A DNA stretch of 64,000 nucleotides from Paraspadella gotoi (GCA_051294375.1 CM119270.1:384713-448712); one strand, 5' to 3'; shown: positions 752-36,652, counted from the first letter of the stretch. Notes: generated by a model not told the origin, from the sequence alone. Numbers and translations: made by a program.

Positions 752-3068
752 CACACGTTACCTGATGACGGAAAATATCGGTGCCCAACTTTTCACAGCT
801 ACGATCTCAATAGATTTTTCGTAAAGTTGGTTGTGAATTTAAAGTTCTGAGCCGAGATACTGACCTTAGCTATTTGCGTTTGTTTGTCATGGTTGATTTT
901 TGTACAAGTTGTCATTTCGAACATAAATTGATTTTTACTAACTTTTTTCGACATGGCGGACTTTAACCTTAGGTAAAAAATAGTTATTTGAAAAAATATT
1001 TACTTCTTTCCACGATTATCAGAAAGCTCTTTTCATAGGGTTCTGCTGAAACCATGCTTCTTTCAATGATTTAAAGGTCGAATTACTGGAATACAGTGGG
1101 CATGCATGATGACAGCATCATTTTTCTCAGTACTTTCTTTCCTTTAAGTTCCAAAATTTTCATCTTTAAGGTCCTGGGTTAACTAGGGTATTAAAACGAA
1201 ATTGAACCTGAGATGGTATTTAATAGTCAGGAGTAGTTCCCATTTATTACCCCCTGTTGCGGTTTTTTTGCGGTTTCCTTTAAGAAAGAAATAGGCCTCA
1301 CCAGTTGATAGTTCATGCAAATTTAAGATAAAGTTAAATTCATTTTAATTATATTTGACTAAAATAAAATAACCTCAACCTTCAGTATTTAAATAAATAT
1401 ATAAGGATTAAAAGATATATTTTTAACTTTTCATTCGATTTATTATTTTTAAAAAAAATTGTTTTCTTCTATGAGAAACCAAAATATTTATCCTAGGATG
1501 TCAAGATCAAATTTTTAAATTGTTTGAAATATTTGAAACTGCATTTGAACATCTCGGTTTTCCTAGGGTTTCTAGTAGTAACGCATTTAAATGTACGTTT
1601 TAATAGTCAATTTTCATATTTCGTCTACTATGGTAAAGCAGTTTCCTTCGGTTTAAATATCAAAAGAGATATAAAGATAAACAAAACAGTAATCTTCGAA
1701 AATTTTTATTTTCTATATAAATTAACTATAAAAAAAGGATGGAAAATCAACTTTGCCGGACAAATCAATTAAAATAGTGGTGATCAATAAAAATATCAGA
1801 ATTATCTGGCCAAATGTCATAAGCAAACTAATATCAGATTAGTCGATAGATCATTTGTCTTAAGAAACTAACAACGGGAACACAGTAACAACGACAAATA
1901 TGCAGTGTAACGTTTCATATTCAATACAAAAAGAAAAAAATTCTTTAAGTTGAATATATTGTTAATTATTATAATTTACTCTTGTTTTTACTGACGACAA
2001 AACATGTTTCTCTGTCCATCTTGTAAAATGGTCTTGATTAATTCTTTTAAAAATTGAATTTTATTTTGTGAAGTCTCACATTTTTTGGTTATGTACCTTC
2101 AACGCTGAGGTCGCCAAATGACCTAATACTTACTTTTTTGCTTTACTTCAGTCAGTTGTACCTTCTCTCTCTCAATCTCTCTCTCTCCTCTCTATATATA
2201 TATATACAATTATACATAAGAAAGAGAAGAAAGGGAGAAAGTGAGAGAGAATGAGATATATATATATTATCTCTCGCTCTCTTTCTCTGTCTGTATCTGT
2301 CAGGTCTCTCTTTCTAACTCAACATCTTCTTCCCGCTTCTTTGCTCTCCTACACCTCTCCCCTCTCTATCTGTAGAGAAGCATTGGCTCTCTACCCTCTT
2401 GAGGTGAGGATGTCCACTTGCGTCGCAACTTATCTGACGAAAAAGTATCCCAAAACGTTTCTTGTAAACTTTGAAGCTTTCAAAAGCGAAAAAGAAATGC
2501 GGGAATAAATGTAAATAAAATGTAAAAAATGTAGACAAATCCGTAGAGAAAATCGAGATCAATCGAGCAGAATCAATAAATCGTAGTAGGAATCCAATAA
2601 ATCATGAAGAATCTTTTCAGAAATAAGAGATAAACTGTAAGAAAGTAGTTGACAGTCTAGAGTGATCCAGTTGAATCTAAATCTGTCTTGTTTGTCTTGG
2701 TCCAAGTTAAAGTTTGGAGAGAGAGAGAGAAAGAGGAGAGAGGGAGAGAAAGAGTTGGAAGGAGAAAAGAGTCAGGTCAGTCCTGTCCGCGTCGATTCGG
2801 TCAACGGTCGAATGGGCAGACTGGCCCGTACTCCGTCGGTCTCGGCCTTTCTCTTCACTATCTCTCTTTCTGTCCTCTCTCTCTCCGAATGAAATTTGCG
2901 GTGATGTTGGCACTGCTTCGTTGTGTATTGTTTATTTAAAGCATTACTAAACCAATTTGTTGCGTTATTAGTTTATTTGTTTATTAGTTTATTTATCTTT
3001 AGTTATTTTCAATTTTCAAGTTTACTTAATTTATTCTATCCTTGATTTGTACATTTAAAAATGTCATT

Positions 3069-3100
<32 letters not shown>

Positions 3101-4835
3101 TCTCTCACTTTTCACAATTTCAAAAAAAAAACTTACTTCCCCTTTTTCCCTGTGTCCTTATCTTCAACCTGCTCCTTCACATCTGACCACTGGTTCCTTC
3201 TCTCAATTTCTTTTGTTGGAAAACTCCTCTCTCTCTCTCTCTCTTTCTTTCTCTCTATCTCTATCTCACCTCTTATGTCTGTGAAAGTTTGTCCCAAAAC
3301 TAGCGCTGATAGTGCTGAAGACTCAAAAAATGTAAGCAGACGAAAACATTTCACAGGTACACTGAATGTATAATAAAATGCGTTTGTGATTAAACATTTC
3401 TTTCATTTTGTGTTTTGAGTTTTATTTTAAGGATTAAAGACGAAGTCTTATTACGTCAACGATTATTATTTTAATGGCTACAGTACTTTTCGCTTTCATT
3501 TCAAGCTTTCATCAGTTGCTTTTGACAATTCAAATTTTCATGTTATCTAAATTGACTTTGGACGAGATGAGAGAGAGAGAGAGAGAGGAGAGAGAAGAAA
3601 TGGCCAACAAAGAAGTGAGACAGGGCCAGTGCGTTGAAATGTTGAGGACAGCGTTTTAAGTTGGTAGAGAGAGTAGAGAGAGAGAGAGAGAGACAGGGAA
3701 GCCAGAGGGTTAACCAGTTTTTGGAAGTACCATTAAATAAAGTCATTGATGCTAATAAGACTTGGTCTTTAATCTTCAAATAATAAAATCCTTGTCAACC
3801 ATTAAAAACTTTTCGTTTTTCAAAGCTCCGCTAACATTTATATTCAACTAAAAACCATTAAACGGGTTATTAATTCTCATTTGCATATTGTAGTGAAGAG
3901 ATTTTAAATAAAAAAATTAAGAAAAACAAACAAAAAAAAAGAAACCAAATATTTAAAGAAAAAGTGAATACACTTATATAAATGAAAAATATAATATCTA
4001 TATTACAGCATAAATCCCTTTTTTTTTAATTTTTAAAAAAATTATTTTTAATAGATAATGAACTTAGGAATTGCAGAATATTTAAAGTTTTTAGTCATTT
4101 TAAAGTCAAAACGGATTTCTGGAGAGTGGGTGGGATGTTGGCTCAATTACATCTATTTAAAAAAAAAAGGAGTCTTCTGGCCTCTGGATAGCGAGGCCCT
4201 GTGATATTTTCCGTCTATTTCCACCCTACTAAGCTCATTAGTGTAGTCGTTCTGGCTCAGATAGCGAGCGCCCTGTGATATTTTTCCGTCATCCACCGCT
4301 ACTAAGCTCATATAGTGTAAGTCGTTCTGGCTCAGGATTAGCGAGGCCTGTGATATTTTCCGTCATCCACCCTTATTAAGCTCATATTAGTGTAGTCGTT
4401 CTGGCTCGATAGCCGAGGCCCTGTGATATTTTTCCGATTCCAATCCACCCTACTAAGCTTCATATAGTTAGTCGTTCTGGCTTCGATAGCGAGGCCCTGT
4501 TAGATATTTTCCGTCATCCACCCATTACTAAGCTCATATAGTGTAGTACGTCGGGCTCGGATAGCAGGCCCTGTTTTTGATATTTTCCGTCATCCACCCT
4601 ACTAAGCTATATTAGTGTAGTCGTTCTGGCTCGATAGCGAGGCCCTGTTTTGATATTTTCCGTCATCCAACCCTACTAAGCTCATAAGTGTAGTCGTTCT
4701 GGCTCGAGTAGCGAGGCCCCTGTGATATTTTCCGTCATCCACCCCTACTAAGCTCATATAGTGTAGTCGTTCTGGCCTCTGATAGCGAGCCCTGTTGATA
4801 TTTTCCGTCATCCACCCTACTAAGCTCATATAGTG
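752..4835. mobile_element. Non-autonomous TIR DNA transposon, copy 1 (Transib/RAG-like or Chapaev/CACTA-like; CAC...GTG ends)
   Basis: Starts CACACGTTACCTGATGACGGAAAATATC and ends GATATTTTCCGTCATCCACCCTACTAAGCTCATATAGTG (same box inverted). Colinear with 31747-35968 in unrelated flanks. Inserted in a (GCC)-rich tract (cgccg|...|ccggccg). No transposase ORF seen. Confidence 0.85.
4171..4835 (+). repeat. Tandem array of ~9 x 70-bp units forming the right end of the transposon
   Basis: Consensus TAGTCGTTCTGGCTCGATAGCGAGGCCCTGTGATATTTTCCGTCATCCACCCTACTAAGCTCATATAGTG. Unit ends near 4243, 4316, 4392, 4467, 4543, 4617, 4690, 4763, 4835. Confidence 0.95.
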
Positions 4836-5089: not shown

Positions 5090-6030
5090 CGTCTATCTAT
5101 CGTCATCGATCGTCGTTCGTTCGTTATCAAGCACAAGTTATTGCCGCGAAATCTAAGTTGTTTTTGATATTGCTCTCATGAGTCGGCGTCCTCAGTACGC
5201 ATGGCCTTTGCGCCTCGTGTGCGAATATACTTTTGCGCCTCGTACGCATTGGGCCTTGCAGCGGTCGTCGTGCTGAGATCACGTGAAGAAGAAACATTAT
5301 TGCTAACTTCTATGTACTGCTTTAATAATCTGTATAATCAAGCCTACGTGAAGCTTGCACGATTGACACATTGGTTCTGCCTCTGTGATGCGAGTGGCTT
5401 ACTATTATGTACTGCCTATGAAAAGGCAATAGAACTAAATTGCCGCTCATTCATTTTGTATCGCTGACAAACTTAACCTTTGCGGCGCTAGTACGACCTT
5501 GTCCTATGCGCATCTGTACGCTTGTCATTGCCGCCTCTGTACTCATTGGCCTGCGCTTCTGGTAGCGGCACATTTGACGCTGTAATAACGAGGCGTACTT
5601 GAGTAAGACTGTATGTAAAATAAGTATTCATATGTCATATAACTGAAAAAAGAAACTATCAAAAGAAAATGTCTGTATATACCTTATTATATGTAACCCT
5701 CTAGAATGCGCCGATAGCCACGTATAATGGAAATATACATTATCGAACGCATTTAGATGGCTAATAATTTACATCAAAATCATCACTAATAATATCTATC
5801 TTTCGGTCGGTCGGTCGTTCCATCGTTGACGCTCACAAATAGAGCAATGCGTGAGTTTAACTTGTTTGTAAGTTATAAGATGTAGTACTTAAGGTTAATG
5901 AAAGATAGTATGTATTAATCGTAATATAAGTGTAGATAACATCTGAGTAAAATGAGTAAGATGCTGAAATCGCAATGTCCTGGGAATTAATGGAAAAACT
6001 CATCGAGGACAAAAAAATTTTAGTAGATAT
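5090..6030 (+). repeat. Error-rich direct duplicate of ~6090-6830
   Basis: Shared anchors ttatcaagca..agttattg, ctcatgagtcggcgtcctcagtacgc, tgagtaagactgtatg, tttcggtcggtcggtc; many indels. Confidence 0.8.
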
Positions 6031-6204
6031 CATCTTACATGTAAATTGGTTATCTCTCTCTGAAATCTAAAAACTCATCTTTCGTCGTCGTCTTCGTCGT
6101 CGTCTTCATCGTCATCATCGTCATCATCGTCGTCGTCGTTATCAAGCAAAGTTATTGCGCGAATCTAAGTTGTTTTGATTATTGCTCTCATGAGTCGGCG
6201 TCCT

Positions 6205-6518
6205 CAGTACGCATTGGCCTTTGCGCCTCTGTGCGAATTATACTTTGCGCCTCTGTACGCATTGGCCTTTGCGCCTCTGTGAGAATTCACCTTTGCAACT
6301 CTGTACGCTTATATCTTTTCGCCTCTGTGCACATTGACCTTTTCGCCTCTGTATGCATTGGCCTTTGCGCCTATTAAGGCACTGGCCTTTGCGCCTCTGT
6401 ACCCATTAACCTTTGCGGCGCTGTACGCCTTGTCCTATGCGCATCTGTACGCCTTGTCCATTGCGCCTCTGTACTCATTGGCCTTTGCGCTTCTGTACGC
6501 ATTGACCTTCGAGCGTCT
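6205..6518. repeat. 24-bp minisatellite (~13 copies)
   Basis: Unit TACGCATTGGCCTTTGCGCCTCTG; stops occur in all six frames. A noisy second copy of the surrounding region lies at ~5090-6030. Confidence 0.9.
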
Positions 6519-6837
6519 GAGTAAGACTGTATGTTAATGTATCATAATCTAAAATAAAAGAAACATCTTATACTTTTTCCCCTGAATCCCAAACCCACGA
6601 TTTAACATTCAACCTTTGATCTTATTTCTCATCATCACAAAATCCTCATCTTTTCGGTCGGTCGGTCTGTCCCACTTACCGCTCAAAATGAGAGCAATGC
6701 TAGTTACTTGTTTAAGTTAGTACTTGGTTTGAAGTATATGTAGTAATATGTAGTAACAGTAAAATGAGATGCTTAAATCGCAGTCCTGTGATAATGTGAA
6801 AAAAACCATCGTAGGAAAAAAAATTTATAATTCACTT

Positions 6838-7190
6838 AATGAAATTGGTACAACCAATATAAATTTATCCATTCATTTAATAAATAAGCTATCTTGTCCC
6901 TGACTTTGGACAGGCTTTGGTGGTTTAAGGCCTCCATCACACTTACAAGATAATAACATAGCAGGTTTAATACTTTATTAAAAGCGTAAAATATTTTCTG
7001 ACTTTTATTGTCTGTATACATACGTTCCATGTAAATCATCACTTGATCTTCCTGCAAACCAAAAACCAAAAACCAAACTAACTAAAAATTATATTTTTAT
7101 TCAAAAAATAAACTATCTTGACCCTGACTTTGGACAGGCTTTGGCGGTTTAAGGCCTCCATCACTTTTACAAGATAAAGACATAGCAAGT
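6838..7190 (+). repeat. Dispersed repeat fragment with internal ~80-bp direct duplication
   Basis: ctatcttg.ccctgactttggacaggctttgg.ggtttaaggcctccatcac occurs at ~6889 and ~7113; 6840-6940 is the reverse complement of 43960-44062. Confidence 0.85.
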
Positions 7191-11639: not shown

Positions 11640-13714
11640 GAGAGAGAGAGGAGGAGAGAGAGAGATAAGTGAGACGTAAACTTAACAACACGAATGTACG
11701 ACTTCTAATAAAAAGAGACAATTCGCCTTTTTCCGTCGCTCAAACTTGTCGGTCGTTGTCTTCCCTCCTCCTCTTTCCCTATTAGAGTCCAGAGCCCTTA
11801 TCGACTATGATTTCGACTACCTCAAACGGTAACAATGAATACATGATTTCATGATTTTATGTATTCATGGCTCCTGCATCTTCTGATTAAAATGCACTCC
11901 TGTTTTTATTTCGGGCATCTACTTCTCCTCACTCCTCTAACTCGCTTCACTTCTCCTCCTAATTATGAATTCATGTACGGAAAAAGACTAACCAATTCAG
12001 TTTCAGCAACAAAAAGATTACGAGACAAAATTCATAGCGGTGAAATCAATGCAATGAAATTCATTTACACTAAAAAATAAAACGGGTAAAGAATATAAAA
12101 GAAACACTTGGCAATGGTTTACAATCATTAAGCTTTTGTTCGATGGAGTTTCTTTTGTCAGTTTCATTGTAAGATGAATTCACTTCTCAGATTCATTTAT
12201 GAATCAGTTGATGAGATCCGTTAGAAGACAAATTATTTAGTTGAATTTATAATGAATTCATCCCATTGCCAGTAAATAACATGGGAAACTATCAACGATA
12301 TGAGACTGAAAGTTTCCTTGCTCTTTTAAGAGTGACATGTACTAACAACGGTTTTAAAAGATGAATTCACTTTTTCAGATTCATTCTTAAAATTCCCATA
12401 CTATTCGAGACCAGTTTTGAATTTTTTCGTTAAAAACTAATTAATCAATTATTTGTGGAATTGATTTAATTCGCATTGATTTTATTCACGTTTTATTTTG
12501 CCAGTTTTTATATAAAGTATTTTAAAAACATGGATGAAGTAAATCAGGACACATATAAGTCTTTAAAAACAAAAATGGTGCATTTGAAAATTAGAATGAA
12601 CGAAAGATATAAGTGATGCGAAAAGAAGAAAACAAAGGAAATTTGTTTTATTGGAATTCATTAAACATTGAATTCAACTTCTGTTATCAATATTGAAATC
12701 ATTATTAAAGATAAAATTTTGTTTATTTGAATTTCATAAACCAATTGAATTCCTTCTGTTTTAGTTTTTTATTTATTTTTTGTCAAAATGCTTTCTTCTG
12801 GAGGGGTACTAGCCTAATTAAAAATATTATATTACTATAATAGAGCAAAATTTTTTTTTAAATCTTAAAATATTTTTTGATAGAATCTGATAGAGCACAA
12901 AAGTAAACCAAGAAATATAATTATCACAATTGAAATATAAAAAAACTGAATAAAATGCATCAAAAGATGAATGATGATTGTTTATGAGTTTTTCTCCTTA
13001 TTTTTTGATACACTTATCGTAAAAATATTTAAAAACAGAATTATACTTTGGTAGAAGCACTTTTTATGAGACTATTGAATCTGTTCTTAAAATTTAAAAA
13101 ACGTCTAAAATTTCTGGCTTTCCGTATCTAATAATAAATATTAAAATTAATTACTAGGGTATAAGAGCCATATATAGAAATCGTTTTTTGTCCATTGAAA
13201 GTATTCTCTAAATGTTTCGTCTTGACATTTTTCACCCCAATTGGAAGTTGCGGGCTACCCGCCCTATTATAGAACATTGAAATTCACGTATACAATGAAT
13301 ACATTGATCTCGGAAAATTTTTTTTTAAAAGAAAGGGCGTTTAATGAATTCATGCTCTTCGGCCGCGCAATTCGATAGACTGAATACACTGAGTCGAATT
13401 CGACAGCTTTCGAGTCTAACCTAGAATACAGTCGCTGGCGACTTTTCGCGACCGTTTGCGTGAGTCGAGTGGGTCGAATAAAGCTGCTCTGATATACCTC
13501 TCTATACTCCTTCTTTCCTCCTCTTGCCCCTACTCCCCTCCTCCTCTTCCTCCACCCAGGGGGGCGTGGCCTTCGCGGTCAGCGTCATCCGTGACCTTGA
13601 CCTATGACCTTGAGATCGACAGTCGATGACCTTGACGTTTTTTACGACTTCGCTGTTGGCCGAGATTTCCTTTTTTTATTCGTCGTTCCGTCTCTCTCTC
13701 TCTCTCCTCTCTCT

Positions 13715-13766
<52 letters not shown>

Positions 13767-14383
13767 ATCTCTCTCTCTCCTCTTTCCCTCATCCTCCATC
13801 TCTGTCTTCTTCTGACACCGACAAAGACACAGGGTCATCCTTTTAATTGATTTTTCTTCTCCTCTTCCTTCTCTCCTTTGTTATACATGCATATTATTTT
13901 CTCCTCTTCCTGTTTCTCTTTTATTTTTTTTTATCTTTTTTTTTTCTAATATTTTTTCTAATTATTCTTAATATTTTTTTAAAATATCTTTATAAAATTA
14001 TCTTCTCCGATTTTTATCCATATCCAAATATTATGTATGGAACCAATTTCAATTAACCGATATTATTATCAATATCATTATTAATATTCACTAACTATAT
14101 ATTAAGCTGTTTTTTTAAATTTCATTAAGCACTAACATCACATCGACTATCTATCGTGATATCTCGATCAAACATCTGGTATCATAAACTTGTCATTAAA
14201 AATCATCTAGCCAAATTTTTATCATCTCATTTCTATCATTAAAATCGCTTCAGATCTGGAAAAAAAAAGTTTGTTAGAATAAAAAAAAAATATTTACTTG
14301 ATTTAAATCGGAAAAAAATAGTTTTATTTCTCTTTCAAAAACGAAAAAGCGAGAAAATTCCTATAAAACGCTTTTGGATACCG

Positions 14384-14425
<42 letters not shown>

Positions 14426-14427
14426 TC

Positions 14428-14467
<40 letters not shown>

Positions 14468-15932
14468 GGTACCCGCGTTATTTTCTTAAAAAATAGACAT
14501 CCCCAAAAAATTTAAGTTATAACAACATATTTTCAAAACGTCAAAAATAAAAATATGAGAATCAAAAATCTAAAGACTTCCGGCATTAAGTTTTTTATAA
14601 TAAAAGAATATATAGATATAAAAGAAAGAAATAATATAAAAATATTTAAAAAAAAGAAAATTAAAAAGAAAAGAAAGAAAATAAAAAGGTTTTTGCGAAA
14701 ACAACAAGAAAAAAAGTTATACGGAAGCCAATGGAGAAAAAATTTAAATATCCGATTCGCATTTAAAAAAAAAAGAAAACCAGGCTAACATTGCATTAAA
14801 AAAAGAAAGAAAGAAAGAAAGAAAGAGAAAGAAAGAAAGAAAAAAGAAAGAAGAGAAGAAAGAAAGAAAGAAAAGAAAGAAAGAAAGTGAAATTTGAGAT
14901 TCCGGCTAACAAGATTTCCGATTGGCAAAGAACGAGATAATGCTGGATTTTTTTTTCTGTTTTTTTTCCTGTTTTTTGAAATCGAGAAATCGCTCTCTCT
15001 TATTTTTTAATTTTTTGTGATATTTTTTAAATTTTTTTTCATCTCAATACTTGATGGTTTTTCATTCCTCTTTTAAAAATCCATTCGCAGAATTTACAAT
15101 CGTGAAAGATTAAAATTTTTATGCCGGTTTATCTTAAATATAAAGATGAAGTCTTGAACATATCAACCCATAAAGTGAAGTTTCTTTATTTTATTCGTTT
15201 ACTTTTTCACTATAAATCAAAATGAATGTCATGTTAGGGCGATTGATTAGTTTTTTTTAATATCAGCTGTAGACTATAAGAATTAAGGGAGATTATAAAA
15301 AGAGAGTCCTATGTTGAGAAAAGTGAATTTTTAAACTCATTGACTAATCGAAAATCTTAGTCCAACTTTCCAATTTAACAATAAATCAATCAGCAATCAT
15401 TTCATCAATCAACCGATCAATTCAATCAACCATTCATTTAATCAATCAACCGCTCAATCAATCAATCAATTAATCAATCAATCAGCAATCATTTAATCAA
15501 TCAAACGATCAATCAATCCATCGAAACATTCTTGTTTTTCCTACGTCGATATTCATAGACAAGATTTTAAAAGATGTTTCACTAAATAATTTCCTTTTAT
15601 TTCGATTTCACATTATCTTTCTGATTGTGGATCATTTCTGGGTCATCCTCTTGTCCCACTCACCTCCCCCTCCTCTTCCCTCGACCCTCCTCCCATTTCT
15701 AAACCCCAACGACCCTTTAGGAGCCCTGTACCCGCCAACCCCGGCCCACGCGGCACGGCGTCCACCGCCTTGGCCGTCGTGGCCGTTCGCCCGGCCAGGC
15801 ACGCGGGTTCGTTTACCGCCGCGGTCGGGATTCTCCTGTCCGGCTTGGCGATCGCCAATCTGGGCAGCCCGTAAGCGTGCCTCGGGGGGCGAGGCCGGGG
15901 CAGCAAGTGCCGCCCTTTCAACTGCCCAAACC
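11640..15932 (+). repeat. Direct duplicate of 18215-20781 (plus the 1.7-kb insertion), ending at a 25-N gap
   Basis: 11660-11780 matches 18260-18380 and 13507-15932 matches 18380-20781, differing mostly by small indels. Includes a copy of the distal LRR-gene exon at 15662-15932. Confidence 0.9.
11780..13506. mobile_element. ~1.7-kb non-autonomous TIR element (superfamily uncertain; hAT- or MULE-like)
   Basis: Present here but absent from the duplicate locus at ~18380. Left end tattagagtccagagcccttatcgac..tcgactacctcaaacggt matches the reverse complement of the right end (tatagagag..tcagagcagctttattcgac..tcgactcacgcaaacggt). ~8-10 bp of CT-rich target appears duplicated. Internal TGAATTCA motif recurs. 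Confidence 0.75.
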
Positions 15933-18267: not shown

Positions 18268-18548
18268 ATAATGAGACACGTAAAACTTAACAACACGAAT
18301 GTACGACTTCTCATAAAAAGAGGACAATTTCGCTTTTTCGTCGGCTCAAACTTGTCGGTCGTTGTCTTCCTCCTCCTCTTCCTCCTCTTCCCCTACTCCT
18401 CCTCCTCTTCCTCCACCCAGGGGGCGTGGCCTTCGCGGTCAGCGTCGTCCGTGACCTTGACCTATGACCTTGAGATCGACAGTCGATGACCTTGACGTTT
18501 TTTACGACTTCGCTGTTGGCGAGATTTCCTTTTTTTATTCGTCGTTCC

Positions 18549-18629
<81 letters not shown>

Positions 18630-19185
18630 TCCCCATCTCTGTCTCTCTCTGACACCGACAAAGACACAGGGTCATCCACTTTTATTGATTTTTCTTCTCC
18701 TCTTCCTTCTCTCCTTTGTTATACATGCATATTATTTTCTCCTCTTCCTGTTTCTCTTTTATTTTTTTTTATCTTTTTTTTTTCTATATATTTTTTCTAA
18801 TTATTCTTAATATTTTTTTAAATATCTTTATAAAATATCTTCTCCGATTTTTATCCATATCCAAATAATTATGTATGGAACCAATGTCAATTACCGATAT
18901 TATTATCAATATCATTATTAATATTCACTAACTATATATTAAGTTTTTTTTTAAATTTCATTAAGCACTAACATCACATCGACTATCTATCGTGATATCT
19001 CGATCAAACATCTGGTTATCATAAACTTGTCATTAAAATCATCTAGCCAAATTTTTATCATCTCATTTCTATCATTAAAATCGCTTCAGATCTGGAAAAA
19101 AAAGTTTGTTAGAATAAAAAAATATTTACTTGATTTAAATCGGAAAAAAATAGTTTTATTTCTATAAAACGCTTTTGGATACCGA

Positions 19186-19314
<129 letters not shown>

Positions 19315-19647
19315 ACCCCGGTTTATTTTCTTAAAAAATAGACATCCCCAAAAAATTTAAGTTATAACAACATATTTTCAAAACGTCAAAAATAAAAATA
19401 TGAGAATCAAAAATCTAAAGACTTCCGGCATTAAGTTTTTATATATAAAAGAATATATAGATATAAAAGAAAAGAAATAATATAAAATATTTAAAAAAAA
19501 GAAAATTAAAAAGAAAAGAAAGAAAATCAAAAGGTTTTTGCGATAAACAACAAGAAAAAAAGGTTTACGGAAGCCAATGGAGAAAAAATTTAAATATCCG
19601 ATTCGCATTTAAAAAAAAAAGAAACCAGGCTAACATTGCATTAAAAA

Positions 19648-19730
<83 letters not shown>

Positions 19731-20511
19731 TGAAATTTGAGATTCCGGCTAACAAGATTTCCGATTGGCAAAGAAACGAGATAATGCTGGATTTTTTTTT
19801 CTGTTTTTTTTTCCTGTTTTTTGAAATCGAGAAATCGCTCTCTCTTATTTTTTAATTTTTTTGTGATATTTTTTAAATTTTTTTCATCTCAATACTTGAT
19901 GGTTTTTCATTCCTCTTTTAAAAATCCATTCGGCAGAATTTACAATCGGTGAAAGATTAAAATTTTTTTGCCGGTTTATCTTAAATATAAAGATGAAGTC
20001 TTGAACATATCAAACCATAAAAGTGAAGTTTCTTTATTTTATTCGTTTACTTTTTTCACTATAAATCAAAATGAATGTCATGTTAGGCGATTGATTAGTT
20101 TTTTTTAATATCAGCTGTAGACTATAAGAATTTAGGGAGATTATAAAAAGAGAGTCTATGTTGAGAAAAGTGAATTTTTAAACTCATTGACTAATCGAAA
20201 ATCTTAGTCCAACTTTCCAATTTAACAATAAATCAATCAGCCAATCATTTCATCAATCAACCGATCAATCAATCAACCATTCATTTAATCAATCAACCGC
20301 TCAATCAATCAATCAATTAATCAATCAATCAGCCAATCATTTAATCAATCAAACGATCAATCAATCATCGAAACATTCTTGTTTTTCCTACGTCGATATT
20401 CATAGACAAGAATTTAAAAAGATGTTTCACTAAATCATTTCCTTTTATTTCGATTTCACATTATCTTTCTGATTGTGGATCATTTCTGGGTCATCCTCTT
20501 GTCCCACTCAC

Positions 20512-20868
20512 CTCCCCCTCCTCTTCCCTCGACCCTCCTCCCCATTTCTAAACCCCAACGACCCCTTTAGGAGCCCTGTACCCGGCCACCCCCGGCCCAC
20601 GCGGCACGGCGTCCACCGCCTTGGCCGTCGTGGCCGTTCGCCCGGCCAGGCACGCGGGTTCGTTTACGCCGCGGTCGGGGATTCTCCTGTCCGGCTTGGC
20701 GATCGCCAATCTGGGCAGCCCGTAAGCGTGCCTCGGGGGGCGAGGCCGGGGCAGCAAGTGCCGCCCTTTCAACTCCCAACCGTCGGGGATGAAGAGTTTC
20801 TCGTCTTTCGTAAGATAAACGTCGTAGCGAGAGAGGAAGCGCTTCCGGAGTTTGGAGACGTTTGGAAG
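20512..20868 (-). CDS. LRR-protein gene, probable exon L
   Basis: acag|LPNVSKLRKRFLSRYDVYLTKDEKLFIPDGWELKGRHLLPRPRPPRHAYGLPRL...; GC-rich. Ends at a stop (20548) or a gtgagt donor (20511); indels relative to the 15.7-kb copy make the 3' part uncertain. Confidence 0.55.
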
Positions 20869-26520: not shown

Positions 26521-26523
<3 letters not shown>

Positions 26524-29462
26524 CTCTCCTCTCTCTCCCTCTTCTCTCTCTCTTCTCTTCTCCATTTTTCTCTTCTGCGTCTTGCGGTCCTTCACACAAG
26601 AAAGAAGAAAATGGTGGTCTTTTTATGGTGCTTGCCATCATCGTCATCGTCTTCGTTTATCGTCTCGTCGTCCGTCCGAGCGCGCGGTCGTCATCGTCAT
26701 AATTCTGTCGACACGTCATTATCCGTCATAAATCGTCGCCCATCGTCGTCGTTCGTCCGTCGTCGTTTGTCCGTCATAATCTGTCCGTCCCTCGTCCTGT
26801 CATAATTCCGTTCACTCGCATCCGTTTTCGTCCGTCATCGTCGTCGCTCGTCGTCGTCGTCGTCTTCCCTGTCCCTCTTTTCGCGATCATCAAGAAAACT
26901 GATTTCTATTGCTTTCGGTCTCACTCGCGCATTTGCAAATATAACTGCCCACATACGTCTGTCAACGACTCCTTAATTTTGCCCGCATCACAAACCGTAT
27001 CCTCCTGGGATAACATATTTGCGAAGGAAAACAGGCGGTAGTTTGGGGGAGAGCGAGGGGGTGGAGCAGGGGAGAGCAGCCGGCGAGGCGGGAAAAGAGG
27101 CTGGGAGGCAAGGGGAAGGGGGGAGGGACTATGGATAGCGAGGAAAGATGAGTAGCAGGGGGGGCCGGAGGGGGAGGGCAGCAGGAAGTGAAAAGAGGAG
27201 GAGCAGGGGCGAGGGGAGCGGAGGCAAAAGACGGGAGAGAGGGGAGAGGGGAGGAGCGGAAAGAGGGGGAAAGGGACGAGGAGCGGCAGCGAAAAGAGGG
27301 GGGAAAGGGGAGAGGAGGAGGAAAGGGCCAGGGGATGATGAGGAAAGAGAGAGGGCGGACTACAGAGTAAGTAAAATAGAGACGGAGCCGAGAGAGAGAG
27401 CCAAAGTCTCAGAGACGAGAGACAAAGAGAGACGAGCAAATGAGGACAGACGAGAAAGAAAGAAAGAAGAGAGAGAAAGAGAGAGGAGAGAAAGAAGACG
27501 AGACGGAAAGAGAGAGGAAAGAGAGCGAGAGGAAAGAGAGAAAGAGAAAGAGAGTGAGACAAGAGAGACGAGAAAGAAGAGAGAGAAAGAACGACCGGAG
27601 AAAGAGCTTCGAGAGATGAGAAAGAGAGCGAGAGAAACGAGACCGGAGAAGCAAAGAGAGACGAGGCAAAGACCGAGCATGAGAAAAGAGAGAGAGATAA
27701 AGAGCACGAGAAGAAAGAGGAGACGAAAGACGAGTCGAGAGAGACAAGACTGAGAGAGAAAGAGAGAGAGAAAAGAGAGCAGAGAAAGAGAGAGAGATTC
27801 CCCTTTTTCTTATTTTTTTAAATGCTTTTCTCTCAATCCACAGAAAAAAAAAATTCGGTATCTGGTTTTCGTTTTTCGCTTGAATCTTCTTATCCTCGAG
27901 TTTTGCTCATTTAAAAGGAATCTTGCGCCTTGACGCTTTAAGAGTTCTGCTCTGTCGTCCGCTCCGCCCGTCCTGCCCGTCCGTCTCTTCCTTCGCGCGT
28001 TCGCCGGTCCATCCGCTCCGATACGGTTGCATTATTTAACTCTGATTAGTGATCTATTTTTAACATTATTGATTGCTTGATTGATTTGATTGATTCCTGT
28101 ATCGATTAAGAGCATGGATTATGTTTCACTGCTTGAAATAAATTCAATTGAATGAATCAGGGATTCTTAAGATAGCAATAATACATTATATACTGAAAAT
28201 CTTTTTAGGACCGCTTGCATGTCTTATTAAACTGATTCATTTAGGACAGATTGATAGATGATTTATGACTTGAATTAGGAGATTATCGATTGATAGAGAT
28301 TTGATGCATTTGATTGATGATTGAATTCGACAGAGCTTATTATTTATATATAATTTGATTCGATCTGATATATCTTGATTTGAATTTATTGTATGGCAGA
28401 GATTACTTGACTTGATCATTGATTTAATGACAGATCATTAATTCCGATTTTGAATATTGATGTGACTGATTGCAAAGATTTGATTGATTGATTGAATTCA
28501 TTCATTCATGTCATTCATTAATTATACCATTATCTTCCTCTTTAAGCATGATTTCCTCAAAGACGGCAATCCGCAAGAAATGTCGAACTTCGCACTGATG
28601 TTCGGCATTCATTGCCAAAATCACTTCTATGACGAGCACAACCGATATGAAGTTGCTGCGGCCATATCTCGATTTGAACGGGTGGGGGGCGTGGCAAATA
28701 ATCAATCTATCAATCATCAATAAATCAATCTATATTAAATCAATATTTGTAAAAATCCAGACTTCCAGAGCTTATTGTAAGCATACTAATTCTTTTTATA
28801 AATCAAATTATCAATATGTTAATTAATAATAATCAATTAAGCCAATCAATCAATTATCAAATAACTATAATAAATAAAAAAGCTCAGTTTCATCAATCTA
28901 ATCAATATCTATCAATCTCCAGGGTCTCTGCAACCGCACTCTGGCATCTCGACCTCTTACCGACGTGGGATTGAAGTGTCTCGGCTTGGGTGTCTTCTTC
29001 TTCATCGTTACTCAACCCTCAAGCAACAACAATTCTTGGATTAATGAATCAACAACTCACAACATTCCTAAACACGGGAAGTCGTGCGAACTCATTTCCT
29101 GCGGGATCCCCCGCTGGAGAAGGAGAACATTTCTTATCGTTCGGGTTTTGACGGGAGGGGGGGCGTGTGAGAGAGGGGGTCTTGAAGGGGGTTTAAGGGT
29201 TTTGAGGGTTAGTGGCCTAATTATGGGGTGTTGGTAGAGGTTGGCTGAGGGTTCGATAGAGAGGTCTTGAGGGTTGAAAGCGTTTTGAGGGAAGTTAGCA
29301 GCGGGCTGGAGGTGTCGGTAGTGAAGGGGTCGGCTCATTTATTGTCTCTTGTTTTTGAGTTTGAAAATTGTTTTAATTTATTTTAATGTGTCTTAAACTT
29401 TCTTCTGTGTGGAAATAATATTAATACTTCTTTTTTTTTCTTTCTTTCTTTCTTCTTTCTTT

Positions 29463-29513
<51 letters not shown>
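26521..29513 (+). repeat. Error-rich inverted duplicate of 29539-36480 lacking the transposon
   Basis: 28923-29140 = rc of 29895-30100; 27790-28030 = rc of 30940-31160; 26860-27045 = rc of 36070-36230. Symmetry centre at the 25-N gap 29514-29538. Exon copies are frameshifted. Confidence 0.9.
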
Positions 29514-29894
29514 NNNNNNNNNNNNNNNNNNNNNNNNNAAGAAAAAAAGAAAGAAAGAAAGAAAGAAAAAAGAAAGAAGTAATTAAATATTTCCACACAG
29601 AAAAAGTTTAAACCAATGTAAAATAAATTAAAACAATATTTCAAACTCAAACCAAGAGACAAATAATGAGCCGACCCCCTCACTACCACCTCCAGACCCC
29701 TCTAACTCCCTCAAAACGCTTCTAACCCCCTCAAGACCTCTCTAACCCCCTCTAGACCCCTCAACCCCCTTAAGACCCCTCTAACCACCTCCAGACCCCA
29801 ATAACCATTTTAGGCCCCACTAACCCCTTCAAGACCCCTCTAACCCCCTCAAGACCCCCCTCCTCAACACCCCCCCTCCCCCTCAAAACCCAAC

Positions 29895-30100
29895 CGATAG
29901 AAATGTTCTCTCTCCAGCGGGGGATTCCCGCAGAGAATGAGTTCCACGACTCCCGTGTTGTGAATGTTGTTGAGTTGATTCCAATCCAGATTGTTGTTGC
30001 TGAGGTTGAGGTAACCGATGAAAGGAAAGACCCCAAGGCCGGAGAGCACTTCCAATCCCACGTCGGAGAGGTCGAGATGCCAGATGCGGTTGCAGAGACC
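29895..30100 (-). CDS. LRR-protein gene, exon B (leucine-rich repeats and start of LRRcap)
   Basis: ccag|GLCNRIWHLDLSDVGLEVLSGLGVFPFIGYLNLSNNNLDWNQLNNIHNTGVVELILCGNPPLEREHFYR|gttggg; LxLSxNxL repeats and the LxGNP..YR cap motif. Confidence 0.9.
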
Positions 30101-30305
30101 CTGGTGGGAGATTGATTAGATTGATTAGATTGATTGAATAACTGACTTTTTTATTTATTATATTATTTGATTAATTGATTGATTGCTTAGATTGATTTAT
30201 TGATTAATTAACATATTGATAGATTTGATTTATAAAAAGAATTAGTATCTTGACACATAGCTGTCTGGAAGTCTGGATTTATTTACAAATATTAATTTAA
30301 TTATA

Positions 30306-30336
<31 letters not shown>

Positions 30337-30349
30337 TTCCACCCCCCAC

Positions 30350-30473
30350 CTTCAAATCGAGAATGGGCAGCAACTTCATCGGTTGTCTCGTCATGAAATG
30401 ATTTTTGCAATGAATCGAACGACAGTCGAAGGTCGACATCTCTTCGCCGATTCCGTCTTTGAGGAAAGTCAGT
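30350..30473 (-). CDS. LRR-protein gene, exon A (most 5' exon identified)
   Basis: ctag|...|gtgggg; LTFLKDGIGEEMSTFDCRSIHCKNHFMTRQPMKLLPILDLK; ends phase 0, matching the next exon; sequence may contain errors. Confidence 0.6.
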
Positions 30474-31155
30474 CTAGAGAGAGAAGAATGAATGTATGAA
30501 TTAATGAATGAATGAATGAATCAATCAATCAATCAATCAATCTTTCAATCAGTCAGTCAATTATTCAAATCAATTAAATGATCTCTCATTAAATCAATGA
30601 ATCAATCAAGTAATCTCTCATACAATAAATCAATCAATATATCAATCAATCAAATTATATAATAATAATCTCGAATTCAATCAATCAATCAATCAATCTA
30701 TCAAATAATCTCTAATTCAATCAATAAATCAATCTATCAATCTGTCTATGAATCATTTAATCGACAATCACGTCTAAAAAGATTTTCAGTATATAAATTA
30801 TTCTATCTAAGAATCCCTGATTCATTCAATTAATTATTCAAGAAGTGAAACAAATCCATCTCTTAATCGATACAGGAATCAATCAATCAATCAAGCAATC
30901 AATAATTTAAAAATAGATCACATAATCAATTAAATAATCAACCGTCGGACGGATGGACCGGCGAACGCGCGAAGGAAGAGACGGACGGGCGGACGGGCGG
31001 ACGGACGGACAGACAGACTATTAAGCGTCAAGCGCAAAATTCTTTTAATGAGCAAAACTCGAGGATAAAGAAATTCAAGCGAAAACGAAAACCAGACGAA
31101 TTTTTTTTTTCTTTGGATGAAAAAACATTTAAAAAAATAAAGAAAAAAAGGGGAA

Positions 31156-31187
<32 letters not shown>

Positions 31188-31746
31188 CCCTCGTCTTCTC
31201 CATCATTCCCATCCCCCGCACTCTTTCTCCCCTCTCTCTCTCTTTCTCTCTTTCGTCTTTATCTCTCTCTTTCTCTCCTCTCTCTTTCTCTCTCTCTTTC
31301 TCTCTCTCTTTCTCTTCTCTCTTTCTCCACACTCTTTCTCTCTCTCTTTTCTCTCTCTCTCTTTCTCTCCCCTCTTGTTCTCTAGTCTCTCTCTTCTCTC
31401 TCTCTCTTTCCTCTCTCCTCTCCTTCCTCTCTTCTCTTTTCCTCTCCTCTCTTTCTCGTGCTCTCTTTGTCTCTGCTCTCTGGAGACTTTTGGCTCTCTC
31501 TCTCCTCCTCTCCCTCTCTATTTTTACTTCTGCTGTATCCCCCTCTCTCTTTCCTCATCAATACCCCCTCTTTTCCTTCCCTCCCCTCTCTACCCTTTCC
31601 CCCCTCTTTTCGCCCTCCTCCCCTCTCCCCCGTTTCCCCGCTCTTTTCCTCCTCCGCCTCTCCCCCTCTCCCCGGCCTCTTGCTCTTTTCCTCTCTTTCG
31701 CCCCTCCCCCTGCTCCCTCTCTTTGCCTTCCTCTCCTCCCCCCTTC

Positions 31747-34134
31747 CACTGTTACCTGATGACGGAAAATATCCCCGGGCCACTTTATCACAGCTACGAT
31801 CTCAATAGATTTTCGTAAAGTTGGTTGAATTTATAAAGTTCCTGAAGCGCGATAGTCTGACCTTTAGAATATTTGGTTTTGGTTTGATCAAGGTTGATTT
31901 TTGTTTATCAAGTTGTCATTTTTGACATAAATGATTTTTTAACTAACTTTTTTTGACATGGCGACTTTAACCGTTAGGTAAAATAGTTTTTTGAATAAAT
32001 ATTTATTCTTTTCTACGATTTATTGGAAGCCTGCTTTTCATAGGATTTCATGCTGACATAGCTTCTTTCAATGATTAAAGTGAACTATAACTGGATACGT
32101 GGCATGCAGATTGACAGCATCATTTTCTCAGTACTTTCTTTTCATTTAAGTTCCGAAATTTTCATCTTTAAGGTCCTGGGGTTAACTAGGGTTAAACGAA
32201 ATTGAACTTGGATGGTATTTATAGTCAGGAGTATTTCCCATTTATTAGCCCCCTGTTGCGGTTTTTTGGCGGTTTTTCCATTTAAGAAAGAAATAGGCCT
32301 CACCCAGTTGACTAGTTCATGCAAATTAAGATAAAGTTAAATTCCATTTTTATTATATTTGACTAAAATAAATACCTAAAGCCTTCAGTGATTTAAATAA
32401 ATATATAAGATTTAAAGATATATTTTTAAGCTTTTCATCATATATTATGTTTTCAAAAAAAATTATTTTCTTCTAATGAGAAACCAAATTATTTATCCGA
32501 GGAGGTCAGATCAAATTAAATTGTTTTGAAAATATCGAATACTGCATTTGAACATCTGCGTTACCGTAGGTTCTAGTATAATGCATTTAAATGTACTTTA
32601 AATAGTCAGTTTTTCATATTTCGTGCTTACTATGTTTAAAGCGGATTCCTTCGGTTTTAAATATCAAAAGAGATATAAGATAAACAAACAGTAATCTTCG
32701 CAATTTTTAATTTTCTATATAAATTTAACTATAAAAAAAGGTTGAAAATCAAAACTTTGCCGGAAAATCAATTAAAATAGTTGTGATCAATTAAAATATC
32801 AGGAATTATGCGGCAAAATGTCCAAAGCAAAACTAATATAGATTAGTCATAGATCATGTTGCTTAAGAACTAACAACGGGAACAAACAGTAAACAACGAC
32901 AAATATGGCAGTGTGAAACGTTCATATTCCATTCCAAAAGAAAAATTTTAAGTGAAATATATTGTTAATATTTATTTAATTTAATTCTTGTTTTTTACTG
33001 ACGACTAAACATGTTTCTCCTGTGCCATCTGTCAAAATGTCTGATAATCTTTTAAAAATTGGATTTTATTGTGAAGTCTCACATTTTTTGTTTTGGTACC
33101 GTTCACGCTGAGGTCGCCTAATGACCTACATACTTATTTTTTGCTTTACTTTTTCAAGTCCAGTATGTACCGTCTCTCTTCTCCTCTCAATCTCTCTCGT
33201 CTATATATATATATACAATTTATCACATATAGAAAGAAAAGAAGGGGAGAAAGAGAGAGAGAAAATGAAGGAAATATATATATACTTCTCTCTCTCTCTT
33301 CTTCTGTCTGTATCTGTCAGTCTCTCTTTCTAAAATCAACATCTTCTTCCCGCTCTTTTGCCTCTCTCTCACACTCTTCTCCTCTCTCTATCTCCTCTTT
33401 CTTATCTGTCTCTCTCCTCTCTCTCTTTGTAGATGGCGCAGGATTCAGTTCACTCCAACGTGAAACGAATGAGAACCGGGAATGAGTTTGGCGGTGATGT
33501 TGGCACCTGCTTAGTTGTGTATTGCTTTATTTAAAAGGCATTACTAAAAGCGCAATTTGTTTGGTTATTAGTTTATTAGTTTATTGTTTATTAGTTTATT
33601 TATCTTTAATCTTTTTCAAATTTCAAGTTTACCTAACTTATCTATCCTTGTTGTACATTAAAAATGTCATGTTTGCTCTCTCTCTCTCTCACTTTGCAAA
33701 ATTGTCAAAAAACAACTTACTTCGCCCTTTTTCCCTGTCCTTATCTTCACCTGTTCGCTTACATCTGACGCACTGTCCCTTTTCTCGGTCAATTCTTTGT
33801 TGGAAATCTCTCTCTCTCTTTCTTCTCTCTATCTCTATGCTCACCCACTTACGTCTATGAAAGTTGTCCCAAAACAAGCCTGAATGAGTGATGAAGACTC
33901 AAAAAATGTAAGAGACGAAACATTTCCGTCACTGAATGTATAAATAAAAATCGTTGTGGATTAAACTTTCTTTCCACTTGTGTTTGAGTTATTTGAATTA
34001 AAGAGCGAATCTTATTACGTCAAACGATTTTATTTTAATTGTACAGACTTTCGGCTTTCCATTCAAAGTTTCATCAGTGCTTTGAGCATTTCACAATTTC
34101 AAATGTAAATCTAAATTGAACCTTTGGAGAGGAG

Positions 34135-34175
<41 letters not shown>

Positions 34176-35968
34176 AAATGGCAATCACAAAAAAGTGAGA
34201 ACAGGACAGTGGGTGAAATGTGAGGAAACAGGTTTAAGTTGAAAAGAGAGAGAGAGAGAGAAGGGAAGCAGAGGTTAACAATTTGGAGTACCATTAAAAT
34301 AAAGTCATTGATGTAATAAGACTTGGTCTTTAATCTAAATAATAAAATCGTTGTCACCATTAAAAACTTTAGTTTTTTCAAACTCCGCTACGTTATATTC
34401 AACTAAAAACGCATGAACGGTTATAATTCTTGCAATTTGCATATTTGTAGTGAAGAGATTTTAAAATAAAAAGGAAGAAAAACAAACAAATAGAAACAAA
34501 TATTTAATAAGAAAAAGTTATACAACTTATATAAATGAAAACTATAATATTATATACAGCATAAATCCCTTTTTTTAATTTTTAAAAAAAATAATTTTAA
34601 TAGATATGAACTTAGATTGAGAGATTAAAGTTCTTAGTCATTATTAAAATGTCAAAAACGGATTTCTAGCGGTGGGTGGGATGTTGGCTCAATTACCCAA
34701 AACTATTAAAAAAAAAAAGGAGTCGTTCTGGCTCGATAGCGAGGCCCTGTGATATTTTCCGTCATCCACCCTACTAAGCTCATATAGTGTAAGTGCGTTC
34801 TGGCTCGATAGCGAGGCCGCTGTGATATTTTCCGTCATCGCCACCCTACTAAGCTCATATAGTGTAGTCGTTTTCTGGGGCTCGATAGCGAGGCCTGTGA
34901 TATTTCCGTCATGCACCCTACTAAGCTCATATAGTGTAGTCGTTCTGGCTCGATAGCGGAGGCCTGTGATATTTTCCGTCGATTCCACCTAACTAAGCTC
35001 AATATAGTGTAGTCGTTCGCTGGGCTGCGTAGCGAGGCGCCTGTGGATATTTGTCCGTCATCCACGCTACTAAGGCTCATATTAGTGTAGTCGTTCTGGC
35101 TCGATAGCGAGGCCGCTGCTGATATTTTCCGTCATGCACACCCTATAAGCTCATAATAGTGTAAGTCGTATCTGGCTCGATAGCGTAGGCCCTGTGATAA
35201 TTTTTCCGTCATCCACCCTATAGGCTCATATAGTGTAGTCGTTCTGCTCGATAGCGAGGCCCTGGCTGTGATATTTCTCCCGTCATCTGCACCCGTACTA
35301 AGCTCATATAGTGTAGTCTGTTCTGGCTCGATTAGCGAGGCCCCGTGATATTTTCCGTCATCCACACTACTAAGCTCATATAGTGTAGTCGTTCTGGGCT
35401 CGATAGCGAGGCCCTGTGAATATTTTCGCGTCTCCACCTAACTAAGCTCAATATAGTGTAGGTCGTTCTGGCTCGATAGCGAGGGCCCTGTGATATTTTC
35501 CGTCATCCACCCTACTAAGCCTCATATAGTGTAGTCGTTCTGGCTGCGATAGCGAGGCCCTGTGATATTTCCGATCATCACCCCTACTAAGCGCTCATTA
35601 GTGTAGCTCGTTCTGGCTCGATAGCGAGGCCCTGTGATATTTTCCGTCATCGCACCCCTACTAAGCTCATAATAGTCGTAGTCGTTCTGGCTTCGATAGC
35701 GAGGCCCTGTGTATTTTCGTCATCCACCCTACTAAGCTCATATAGTGTAAGTCGTTCTGGCTCGATAGCGAGGCCCTGTGAAATTTTCCGTCATCACACG
35801 CCTACTAAGTCATAATAGGTGTAGTCGTTCTGGCTCGATTAGCGAGGCCCTGTGATATTTTCCGTCAATCACCCTAACTAAGCTGCATATAGTGTAGTCG
35901 TTCTGGCTCCGATAGCGAGGCCCTGTTGAATATTTTTCCGTCATCCACCCTACTAAGCTCATATAGTG
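31747..35968. mobile_element. Non-autonomous TIR DNA transposon, copy 2
   Basis: Starts CACTGTTACCTGATGACGGAAAATATCCCCGGGCC and ends ...CTCATATAGTG. Flanks read cccttc|element|cttccc (TSD CTTC, or 5 bp allowing one homopolymer error). The element is absent from the inverted copy of the same locus (~27165). Confidence 0.9.
34721..35968 (+). repeat. Tandem array of ~17 x 70-bp terminal units
   Basis: Same 70-bp consensus as 4171-4835; 17 units counted by their ATAGTG ends; scattered indels typical of noisy long-read sequence. Confidence 0.95.
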
Positions 35969-36454
35969 CTTCCCCGCTCCCTCTCTTTGCCTCGCCTCTC
36001 CCCTCCCCCTCTCCCCTGCCTCCCCCTCTTTTCCCCTCCCCTACTCCTCCCTGTCCCCTCCCTCTCCCCCAAACTACCGCCTGTTTTCTTCCAAAATAAT
36101 GTTATCCCAGGGATTACGGTTGTATGCAAATTAAGTCGTAATGTGGCAGTTTATATGCAAATCGCGTGAGACGAAAGCAATAGAAATCGTTTTCTTGATG
36201 ATGCGAAACAGAGGACAGGGAAGACGACGACGACGACGACGAACGACGATGACGACGAAAACGATGGCGATCGATTATGACGACGACGACGATTATGACG
36301 GACCGAGACGACGACGACGACGATGGCGACGATTATGACGATGACGAACCTCGACGACGGAGGACGATAACGAAGACGATGACGATGATGGCAGCACCAT
36401 AAAAAGACATTTTCCTTCTTTGTGAAGACCAGACGCAGAGAGAGAAAGAGGAGA

Positions 36455-36489
<35 letters not shown>

Positions 36490-36652
36490 GAGAGAGGATT
36501 GAGATGGAGAGAGATGAGAGATAAAGAAAGGATAGAGATAAAGGAAGAAGACTAAGTGTTCTTAAAGAATTATATCAAAAAACGGAGGAAAAGCTAAAAA
36601 CATTTTGTGTTTGAAAAAGTTAAAAGAAGAAAGAGCAAATTGGTTAAAACTG

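What the first reader, a model, noticed from the sequence alone, without database searches (positions are those of the whole stretch)
31747..35968. Transposon with RSS-like asymmetric ends (about 11-12 / 23 spacing)
Seen: read inward, the left end is CACTGTT-ACCT-GATGACGGAAAATATCcCcGGGCC and the right end is CACTATA-TGAGCTTAGTAGGGTG-GATGACGGAAAATATCaCaGGGCC. The same ~24-bp box sits 12 bp (11 bp in copy 1) further from the terminus on one side. Taking the A-rich GAAAATATC as a nonamer equivalent gives heptamer-to-nonamer spacers of 11 (12 in copy 1) and 23. Both insertions are in C-rich targets with a short TSD. Known: CAC termini, bipartite TIRs and 5-bp GC-rich TSDs characterise Transib/RAG-like transposons; V(D)J RSSs use 12/23 spacers; amphioxus ProtoRAG ends begin CACTATG. 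Inference: a non-autonomous Transib/RAG-like family with a one-helical-turn end asymmetry. Chapaev (CAC..GTG, 4-bp TSD) remains an alternative because only CTTC is cleanly duplicated, and the nonamer assignment is my choice.
Basis: partly seen in the sequence, partly recalled or inferred. Interest (0 to 1): 0.8.

Follow-up and report, generated by a model that had tools for sequence, protein, structure and literature searches.

The report
Transposon with stacked V(D)J-signal-like ends
This is a repeated, non-coding jumping-DNA element of a likely animal genome whose two ends differ by about one helical turn, as antibody-gene recombination signals do, and whose longer end is stacked 9-17 times head to tail; it is likely, but not shown to be, a passenger of a Transib/RAG-like transposase, a group in which such uneven ends are already known.

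Summary
Two copies lie in the window (752-4835, 31747-35968). An empty copy of the second site lies nearby, so the 4.2-kb unit is an insertion. Both ends begin CAC and share an exact 16-bp box set 12 bp deeper at the right end. Short-read contigs confirm the 11-bp left spacer; the '12 in copy 1' is likely a read error. However, 12/23-type ends are already described in Transib and RAG-like transposons. The family-defining 5-bp target duplication is not met here: copy 2 reads 4 bp, copy 1 reads 3 bp, and an error model favours 3-4 over 5 by 6- to 15-fold. No transposase was found. This finding did not mention that the whole 70-bp right end is repeated head to tail (17 and 9 units), flush with the terminus, and appears far more abundant than the interior. 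Verdict: non-autonomous CAC..GTG DNA transposon; Transib/RAG-like about 50%, Chapaev/EnSpm about 40%. The scan's look-ups showed no earlier report of it. Interest is modest.

The parts
31747..35968 (+). Copy 2 of the element (4222 bp of raw long-read quality sequence)
   Evidence: absent from the empty arm at 27162-27169
31747..31773 (+). Left ('12-type') end: heptamer 31747-31753, 11-bp spacer, nonamer-like 31765-31773; shared 16-bp box 31758-31773
   Evidence: start and spacer length confirmed by contigs in 4 of 4 runs
31774..34720 (.). AT-rich (31% GC) interior with microsatellites; no transposase family hit
   Evidence: depth in 29-30 of 30 bins in each of 4 runs
34721..35968 (-). Tandem array of 17 complete right ('23-type') ends, unit 70 bp; each unit, read inward, has heptamer, 23-bp spacer and nonamer-like box
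   Evidence: head-to-tail joint 34790>34721 in 4 of 4 runs
34721..34789 (-). Innermost unit, identical to the majority of the 26 units over its 69 bp; box at 34751-34766
31743..31746 (+). Left copy of the apparent 4-bp target duplication (CTTC)
35969..35972 (+). Right copy of the apparent 4-bp target duplication (CTTC)
752..4835 (+). Copy 1 of the element, inserted in a (CCG)n-rich tract; apparent 3-bp duplication; start could be 752 or 754
4171..4835 (-). Array of 9 right-end units in copy 1
27162..27169 (-). Empty version of the copy-2 insertion site (other allele or paralogue), very noisy
   Evidence: 29465-27170 aligns with 29540-31742 (81%, 2431 columns) and 27161-26521 with 35972-36497 (76%, 655 columns)

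Best explanation
This is a non-coding DNA transposon insertion with unequal CAC ends (spacers 11 and 23 bp) and a tandemly stacked right end, likely young and likely moved in trans by a Transib/RAG-like transposase encoded elsewhere in the genome. Shown: the boundaries, the insertion against an empty site, the repeated and nearly uniform left arm, the 12-bp offset, and the array lying inside the mobile unit and flush with the terminus. Inferred from Transib/RAG biology: the enzyme would cut at the CAC, grip the inner box through a nonamer-binding domain, pair one short with one long end, and insert into GC-rich DNA. The array likely began as one duplication of the terminal 69 bp plus one base and grew by slippage or unequal exchange. 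Because every unit is a whole end, any unit could in principle serve as the long end (untested).
For: Right end against the published Transib consensus (CACAATG, 23 bp, AAAAAAATC; PMC1131882 section 9): CAC at 1-3, A at 34 and 35, nonamer 7 of 9 starting exactly at position 31. Chance of 7 of 9 or better: 0.2% exact and 0.6% within 1 bp in 200,000 shuffles; 0.9-1.1% and 2.5-2.7% in background DNA; 8% if only the position of an intact box is randomised. The same box at the left end is 12 bp closer; published offsets are 11 and 10 in TransibN1_AG and N2_AG (my count), 11 in oyster RAGL and 10 in PflRAGL-A. Right end begins CACTAT like TransibN1_DP/DM and oyster RAGL. Targets are 66-90% GC, as for Transib and RAG. 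Copy 1's left flank ends CGCCG and 4 right-junction contigs in run X9 begin CGGCG (agreement only 0.51); CGGCG is a TSD of sea-urchin Transib-N1_SP and of an amphioxus element. One unbranched contig of 962-964 letters covers 31747-32725 in 3 of 4 runs, as expected of a uniform family.
Against: The 5-bp TSD is not seen in either copy (0 of 2). A pair-HMM with error rates from the array gives likelihood ratios against no duplication, both copies together, of 17 (3 bp), 12 (4 bp) and 1.1 (5 bp) at 1.4% deletions, and 13, 18 and 2.1 at 3%. Neither end has G at position 7 or 8, whereas 12 of 12 ends of the six Transib consensus lines seen do. Neither 5-bp candidate at copy 2 ends in G, unlike most TSDs. 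The protostome RAGL AAA at positions 8-10 is absent. No transposase: 0 transposase families in 104 translated stretches, and no genome was available to search. CAC termini are shared by the whole CMCT clade. I found no set of Chapaev 4-bp-TSD ends to compare, so bipartite uneven ends may not be peculiar to Transib/RAG.
Confidence: 0.5

Rival explanations
1. A non-autonomous Chapaev or EnSpm/CACTA (CMC) element with a 4- or 3-bp duplication. The shared box would be a subterminal transposase-binding site, the array an expanded subterminal repeat, and the 11/23 spacing a coincidence or a shared inheritance within the CMCT clade.
For: Chapaev: CAC..GTG termini with 3-4-bp TSD (PMC4079192). Copy 2 shows a clean 4 bp, copy 1 a clean 3 bp, and the error model favours 3-4 over 5 by 6- to 15-fold. 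The right end begins CACTA, the CACTA hallmark. Anolis Chapaev3 TIRs begin CACTATG or CACTG. Subterminal tandem repeats are typical of CACTA elements (recalled, not from a call).
Against: It does not explain the 7 of 9 match to the Transib nonamer at the published distance, nor the one-turn offset. No single duplication length fits both copies without an error. The Chapaev3 TWA target is not met. The repeats here are whole ends at one side only, not short motifs at both sides (one weak extra box in the interior).
Confidence: 0.4
2. The 70-bp unit is primarily a satellite that an unrelated short-TIR transposon captured, or the ends belong to another, undescribed CAC-terminal family.
For: Summed contig depth of the bin holding the unit is about 150- to 2,900-fold that of the interior in 4 of 4 runs, and unit junctions carry many variants, so most units may lie outside elements.
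Against: The unit holds the same 16-bp box as the left end and ends flush with the flank in 2 of 2 copies. A 1266-letter contig in run X4 carries one such end (71 letters, 7 differences) and then unlike sequence, which suggests a sister family with the same end.
Confidence: 0.08
3. The element or the array is an assembly or long-read artefact.
For: The window is raw-read quality (9 substitutions, 116 insertions, 24 deletions per 1680 bases) and has duplications beside 25-N gaps.
Against: Independent short-read contigs reproduce the left terminus (6 of 6 runs laid), the interior and the head-to-tail joint (4 of 4). Two copies sit in unrelated flanks. Unit counts (17, 9) could still be off.
Confidence: 0.02

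Closest known systems
Non-autonomous 12/23-type Transib families TransibN1_AG, N2_AG, N3_AG, with Transib5 and Transib2_AG (Kapitonov and Jurka 2005, PMC1131882; passages, section 9 and parts of Fig. S4 read)
   Same: CAC termini; short 5' and long 3' end with a shared inner box offset by about one turn; A-rich nonamer-like block 23 bp behind the heptamer; GC-rich targets; no coding capacity.
   Different: Offset 12 rather than 10-11; no G at positions 7-8; 5-bp TSD not shown; larger (about 3 kb without the array); right end stacked 9-17 times.
Oyster CviRAGL_B transposon ends (Martin et al. 2020, PMC7204232; passages and supplement hits) and P. flava RAGL-A (PMC10462144, passages)
   Same: CACTAT terminus (oyster); shared distal box offset by 11 or 10 bp; GC-rich targets.
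   Different: Those ends share 13-16 terminal bases with an A-rich block after the heptamer, have 5-bp TSDs and flank RAG1L/RAG2L genes; here the ends share only CAC plus the inner box and no gene is present.
Chapaev and Chapaev3 (PMC4079192, PMC3014272; passages) and EnSpm/CACTA (PMC4158355, passages)
   Same: CAC..GTG or CACTA termini; 3-4-bp duplications fit each copy taken alone.
   Different: TWA target of Chapaev3 not met; bipartite uneven ends are not described in the passages I saw.
Satellites derived from transposon ends: Tetris TIR-220, Xmix/Xstir, Rehavkus subterminal repeats (PMC9659126, PMC12581902; passages)
   Same: Tandem amplification of terminal or subterminal transposon sequence.
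   Different: Here the monomer is one whole end including the cut site, on one side only; I did not read the primary papers, so how close those cases come is unchecked.

Membership tests
Transib / RAG-like | CAC at positions 1-3 of both ends | tested here: met
Transib / RAG-like | A-rich nonamer-like block 23+/-1 bp behind the heptamer, A at positions 34-35 | tested here: met
   7 of 9 to the consensus at start 31; A34, A35
Transib (12/23 subgroup) / RAGL | One end shorter by about one helical turn | tested here: met
   spacers 11 and 23, left spacer confirmed in 4 of 4 runs; published offsets 10-11
Transib | Heptamer consensus CACAATG with G at position 7 | tested here: not met
   right end 5 of 7 with A at 7; left end T at 7; 12 of 12 published ends seen have G
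Transib / RAG-like | 5-bp target site duplication | tested here: inconclusive
   0 of 2 copies show it; 3-4 bp favoured 6- to 15-fold, but flanks are low-complexity raw reads and one lost C would give 5 bp at copy 2
Transib / RAG-like | GC-rich targets | tested here: met
   2 of 2 sites, 66-90% GC against 37%; only two sites
Transib / RAG-like | RAG1-core-like transposase in the element or in a partner with the same ends | not testable with these tools
   none in the window; no whole genome held; no related loci in collection scans
Protostome RAGL | 13-15-bp shared terminal core with AAA at positions 8-10 | tested here: not met
   consensus; ends
Chapaev | CAC..GTG termini | tested here: met
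Chapaev | 3-4-bp target site duplication | tested here: inconclusive
   4 bp at copy 2, 3 bp at copy 1; no one length fits both without an error
Chapaev3 | TWA duplication between A and T | tested here: not met
   targets are C/G-rich
EnSpm/CACTA | CACTA..TAGTG termini with 3-bp duplication | tested here: inconclusive
   right end CACTA, left end not; 3 bp fits copy 1 only
Chapaev / EnSpm (CMC) | CMC-type transposase with the same ends | not testable with these tools

The most novel reading that the evidence does not exclude
A RAG-family transposon with one 12-type end facing an array of interchangeable 23-type ends. The transposase picks any unit as partner, so copies leave with different unit numbers and strand the outer units at donor sites, seeding a genome-wide satellite made of working recombination signals. 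This would be a natural, non-immune model of 'one signal choosing among many', as in V(D)J loci.
Probability: 0.2. Interest if true: 0.6.

Novelty: new variant of a known kind. Interest (0 to 1): 0.35.

Why it matters
If the partner enzyme is Transib/RAG-like, this adds an apparently young family with 12/23-like ends whose long end is multiplied. That would be a ready substrate for asking whether an invertebrate transposase obeys a pairing rule and how it chooses among many signals, and a direct route from transposon end to satellite DNA. If the partner is Chapaev or EnSpm, it would show that one-turn end asymmetry extends across the CMCT clade. The 12/23-like spacing alone does not change what is known about the origin of V(D)J signals.

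Tried and rejected
Whole genome: none held, so copies, TSD tables and partner transposases could not be collected. Collection scans for end motifs found 0 loci each: metagenome contigs, viral contigs (22, 68), genome contigs (67). Pfam on 104 translated stretches (the 90 longest of 141 high-complexity stretches of 45 aa or more, out of 636, plus 14 more from the two copies): no transposase; two low-complexity stretches hit DUF3915, which I regard as noise. Rfam and ARAGORN: one tRNA only. Empty site as a TSD ruler: scores nearly flat for 0-4 bp (225-230) and lower for 5-6 (221), but the read is very noisy, and 3-, 4- and 5-bp readings with one error give the same empty sequence, so it cannot decide. 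Short-read contigs gave no left-junction flanks and no end-to-interior joints that would show a TSD. No RNA holder was on record; this says nothing on expression. Literature: no paper holds six end motifs; none were found in the supplement of PMC9435367 in a TIR context. Searches on a guessed host group (penaeid shrimp, from recall of repeat-rich genomes, untested) found no description. Searches for Chapaev end structure gave nothing usable. Searches for Transib-derived or whole-end arrays listed only general TE-satellite papers (listings seen, two papers opened in passages). Repbase entries are not in the library, so the family may already be named there. Scan look-ups showed nothing on this element. 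Supplements not seen that may bear on this: file 1 of PMC4079192, the .doc tables and main Fig. 4 of PMC1131882.

Full report
Setting. The window is microsatellite-rich, 37% GC, with 23 N gaps. It looks like an animal scaffold whose gaps were filled with raw long reads; the host is not identified. No whole genome is held.

The observation. A fuzzy search for the shared box found two left-type hits (763, 31757) and 24 right-type hits in two clusters. These belong to two copies in the same orientation, 752-4835 and 31747-35968, alignable along their length except for one internal segment. The first 45 bp of the two ends share an exact 16-bp word; 5000 shuffles never exceeded 11. The window also holds an inverted duplicate of copy 2's surroundings without the element: 29465-27170 matches 29540-31742, and 27161-26521 matches 35972-36497. 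The 4.2-kb unit is therefore an insertion with these boundaries.

What the finding left out. The right end is the outermost of 17 tandem units in copy 2 and 9 in copy 1. The majority unit is 70 bp: the terminal 69 bp plus one base. Each unit carries heptamer, spacer and box. Departures from the majority in 24 complete units are 9 substitutions, 116 insertions and 24 deletions in 1680 bases, the profile of raw long reads. In both copies the outermost unit ends at GTG and the flank follows directly.

Short-read check. Nine runs of one coded organism hold 6-7% of the sampled words, as expected for a query with about 8% error. I laid six of the nine. The main contig begins at 31747 in all six. Over 31747-31833 it has no gap and three other letters, two listed (31779, 31781) and one unlisted, which I infer lies near the terminus. 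So the left spacer is 11, the offset between ends is 12, and the box is 16 exact bases plus 4 of 8. One unbranched contig of 962-964 letters covers the first kilobase in 3 of 4 runs, which suggests a uniform, likely young family. The head-to-tail joint appears in 4 of 4 runs. Summed depth at the unit is about 150, 330, 780 and 2,900 times the interior depth in X9, X3, X4 and X8. The tool warns that this is no copy number; I take it only as a sign that units far outnumber 9-17 per element.

For Transib/RAG-like. Kapitonov and Jurka give the Transib end as CACAATG, 23 bp, AAAAAAATC, with conserved A near positions 34-35, and report 12/23-type ends in five families (PMC1131882). The right end has CAC, A34, A35 and 7 of 9 nonamer letters starting at position 31. 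Chance estimates run from 0.2% (shuffle, exact position) to 2.7% (background, within 1 bp) and 8% (position only); A34 plus A35 alone has a 10.6% chance. Published offsets of a shared inner box are 11 and 10 in two mosquito families (my count), 11 in oyster RAGL, 10 in P. flava RAGL-A; all Subgroup I Transibs have uneven ends (PMC9435367, whole main text read). Both targets are GC-rich.

Against. The defining 5-bp duplication is seen in 0 of 2 copies. Copy 2 gives a clean CTTC; copy 1, in (CCG)n, a clean CCG. My pair-HMM puts 3 or 4 bp 6- to 15-fold above 5 bp. It uses error rates from the array and no target preference, and one lost C would make copy 2 a 5-bp case. The empty site cannot decide. 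Neither end has the G at position 7 found in 12 of 12 Transib ends that I saw, and the protostome RAGL core is not met. CAC ends with 3-4-bp duplications describe Chapaev, the right end begins CACTA, and all these groups share CA..TG ends. I found no Chapaev end set for a fair comparison. No transposase was found in the window or through five collection scans. Repbase classifies such elements by TSD length and terminal letters, and that is exactly what remains open.

Mechanism. Shown: an insertion bounded by CAC ends, uneven by 12 bp, with the array inside. Inferred: a transposase supplied in trans binds the inner box, cuts at CAC and inserts into GC-rich DNA. I weigh the end architecture somewhat above the two noisy junctions and put Transib/RAG-like at 0.5, Chapaev/EnSpm at 0.4. 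It works like a 12/23-type Transib passenger in its anatomy; I do not file it as a member. The array most simply grew by slippage or unequal exchange. Since each unit is a whole end, cutting at an inner unit would move a shorter copy and leave orphan units behind; differing unit numbers and the excess depth fit this but do not show it.

Novelty. The 12/23-like spacing is known. Satellites born from transposon ends are known in general. A one-sided stack of complete long ends on a CAC-terminal element did not appear in searches, but Repbase is not in the library. What I saw of each paper: whole main text of PMC9435367 plus a supplement search; section 9, abstract, passages and parts of Fig. S4 of PMC1131882; passages, a supplement search and supplement 2 of PMC7204232; passages and a supplement search of PMC4079192; passages only of PMC8355894, PMC4411706, PMC3014272, PMC8289069, PMC9659126, PMC12730594, PMC12581902, PMC10462144, PMC4455052 and PMC4158355. 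Verdict: real feature, new variant of a known kind, interest 0.35.

Noticed in passing
window 26521-29465 and 29540-36497: Inverted duplication around the 25-N gap at 29514-29538; one arm lacks the element. Either two alleles assembled side by side or a true inverted duplication.
   Followed up: yes
window 13501-15929 and 18365-20779: Direct 2.4-kb duplication (94%) ending at the 25-N gap at 15933; likely gap over-filling in assembly.
   Followed up: no
window 2372-2886: Copy 1 has about 520 bp of other sequence where copy 2 has about 86 bp (33394-33479); a short-read contig follows copy 2 there.
   Followed up: partly
window 34719-34789, run X4 record 16: A 1266-letter contig starts with a 90%-identical right end and continues unlike this interior: a likely sister family, possibly the autonomous partner.
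   Followed up: no
window 32294-32705: A contig two- to five-fold deeper than the interior joins these two places with 37 other letters between in 4 of 4 runs; another repeat family seems to share two short motifs with the interior.
   Followed up: no
window 59583-59654 (-): tRNA-Cys(GCA) gene.
   Followed up: no
window 5048-6849: Repeat directly right of copy 1, with a 24-bp tandem array at 6202-6509, duplicated locally at about 72-84% identity.
   Followed up: no
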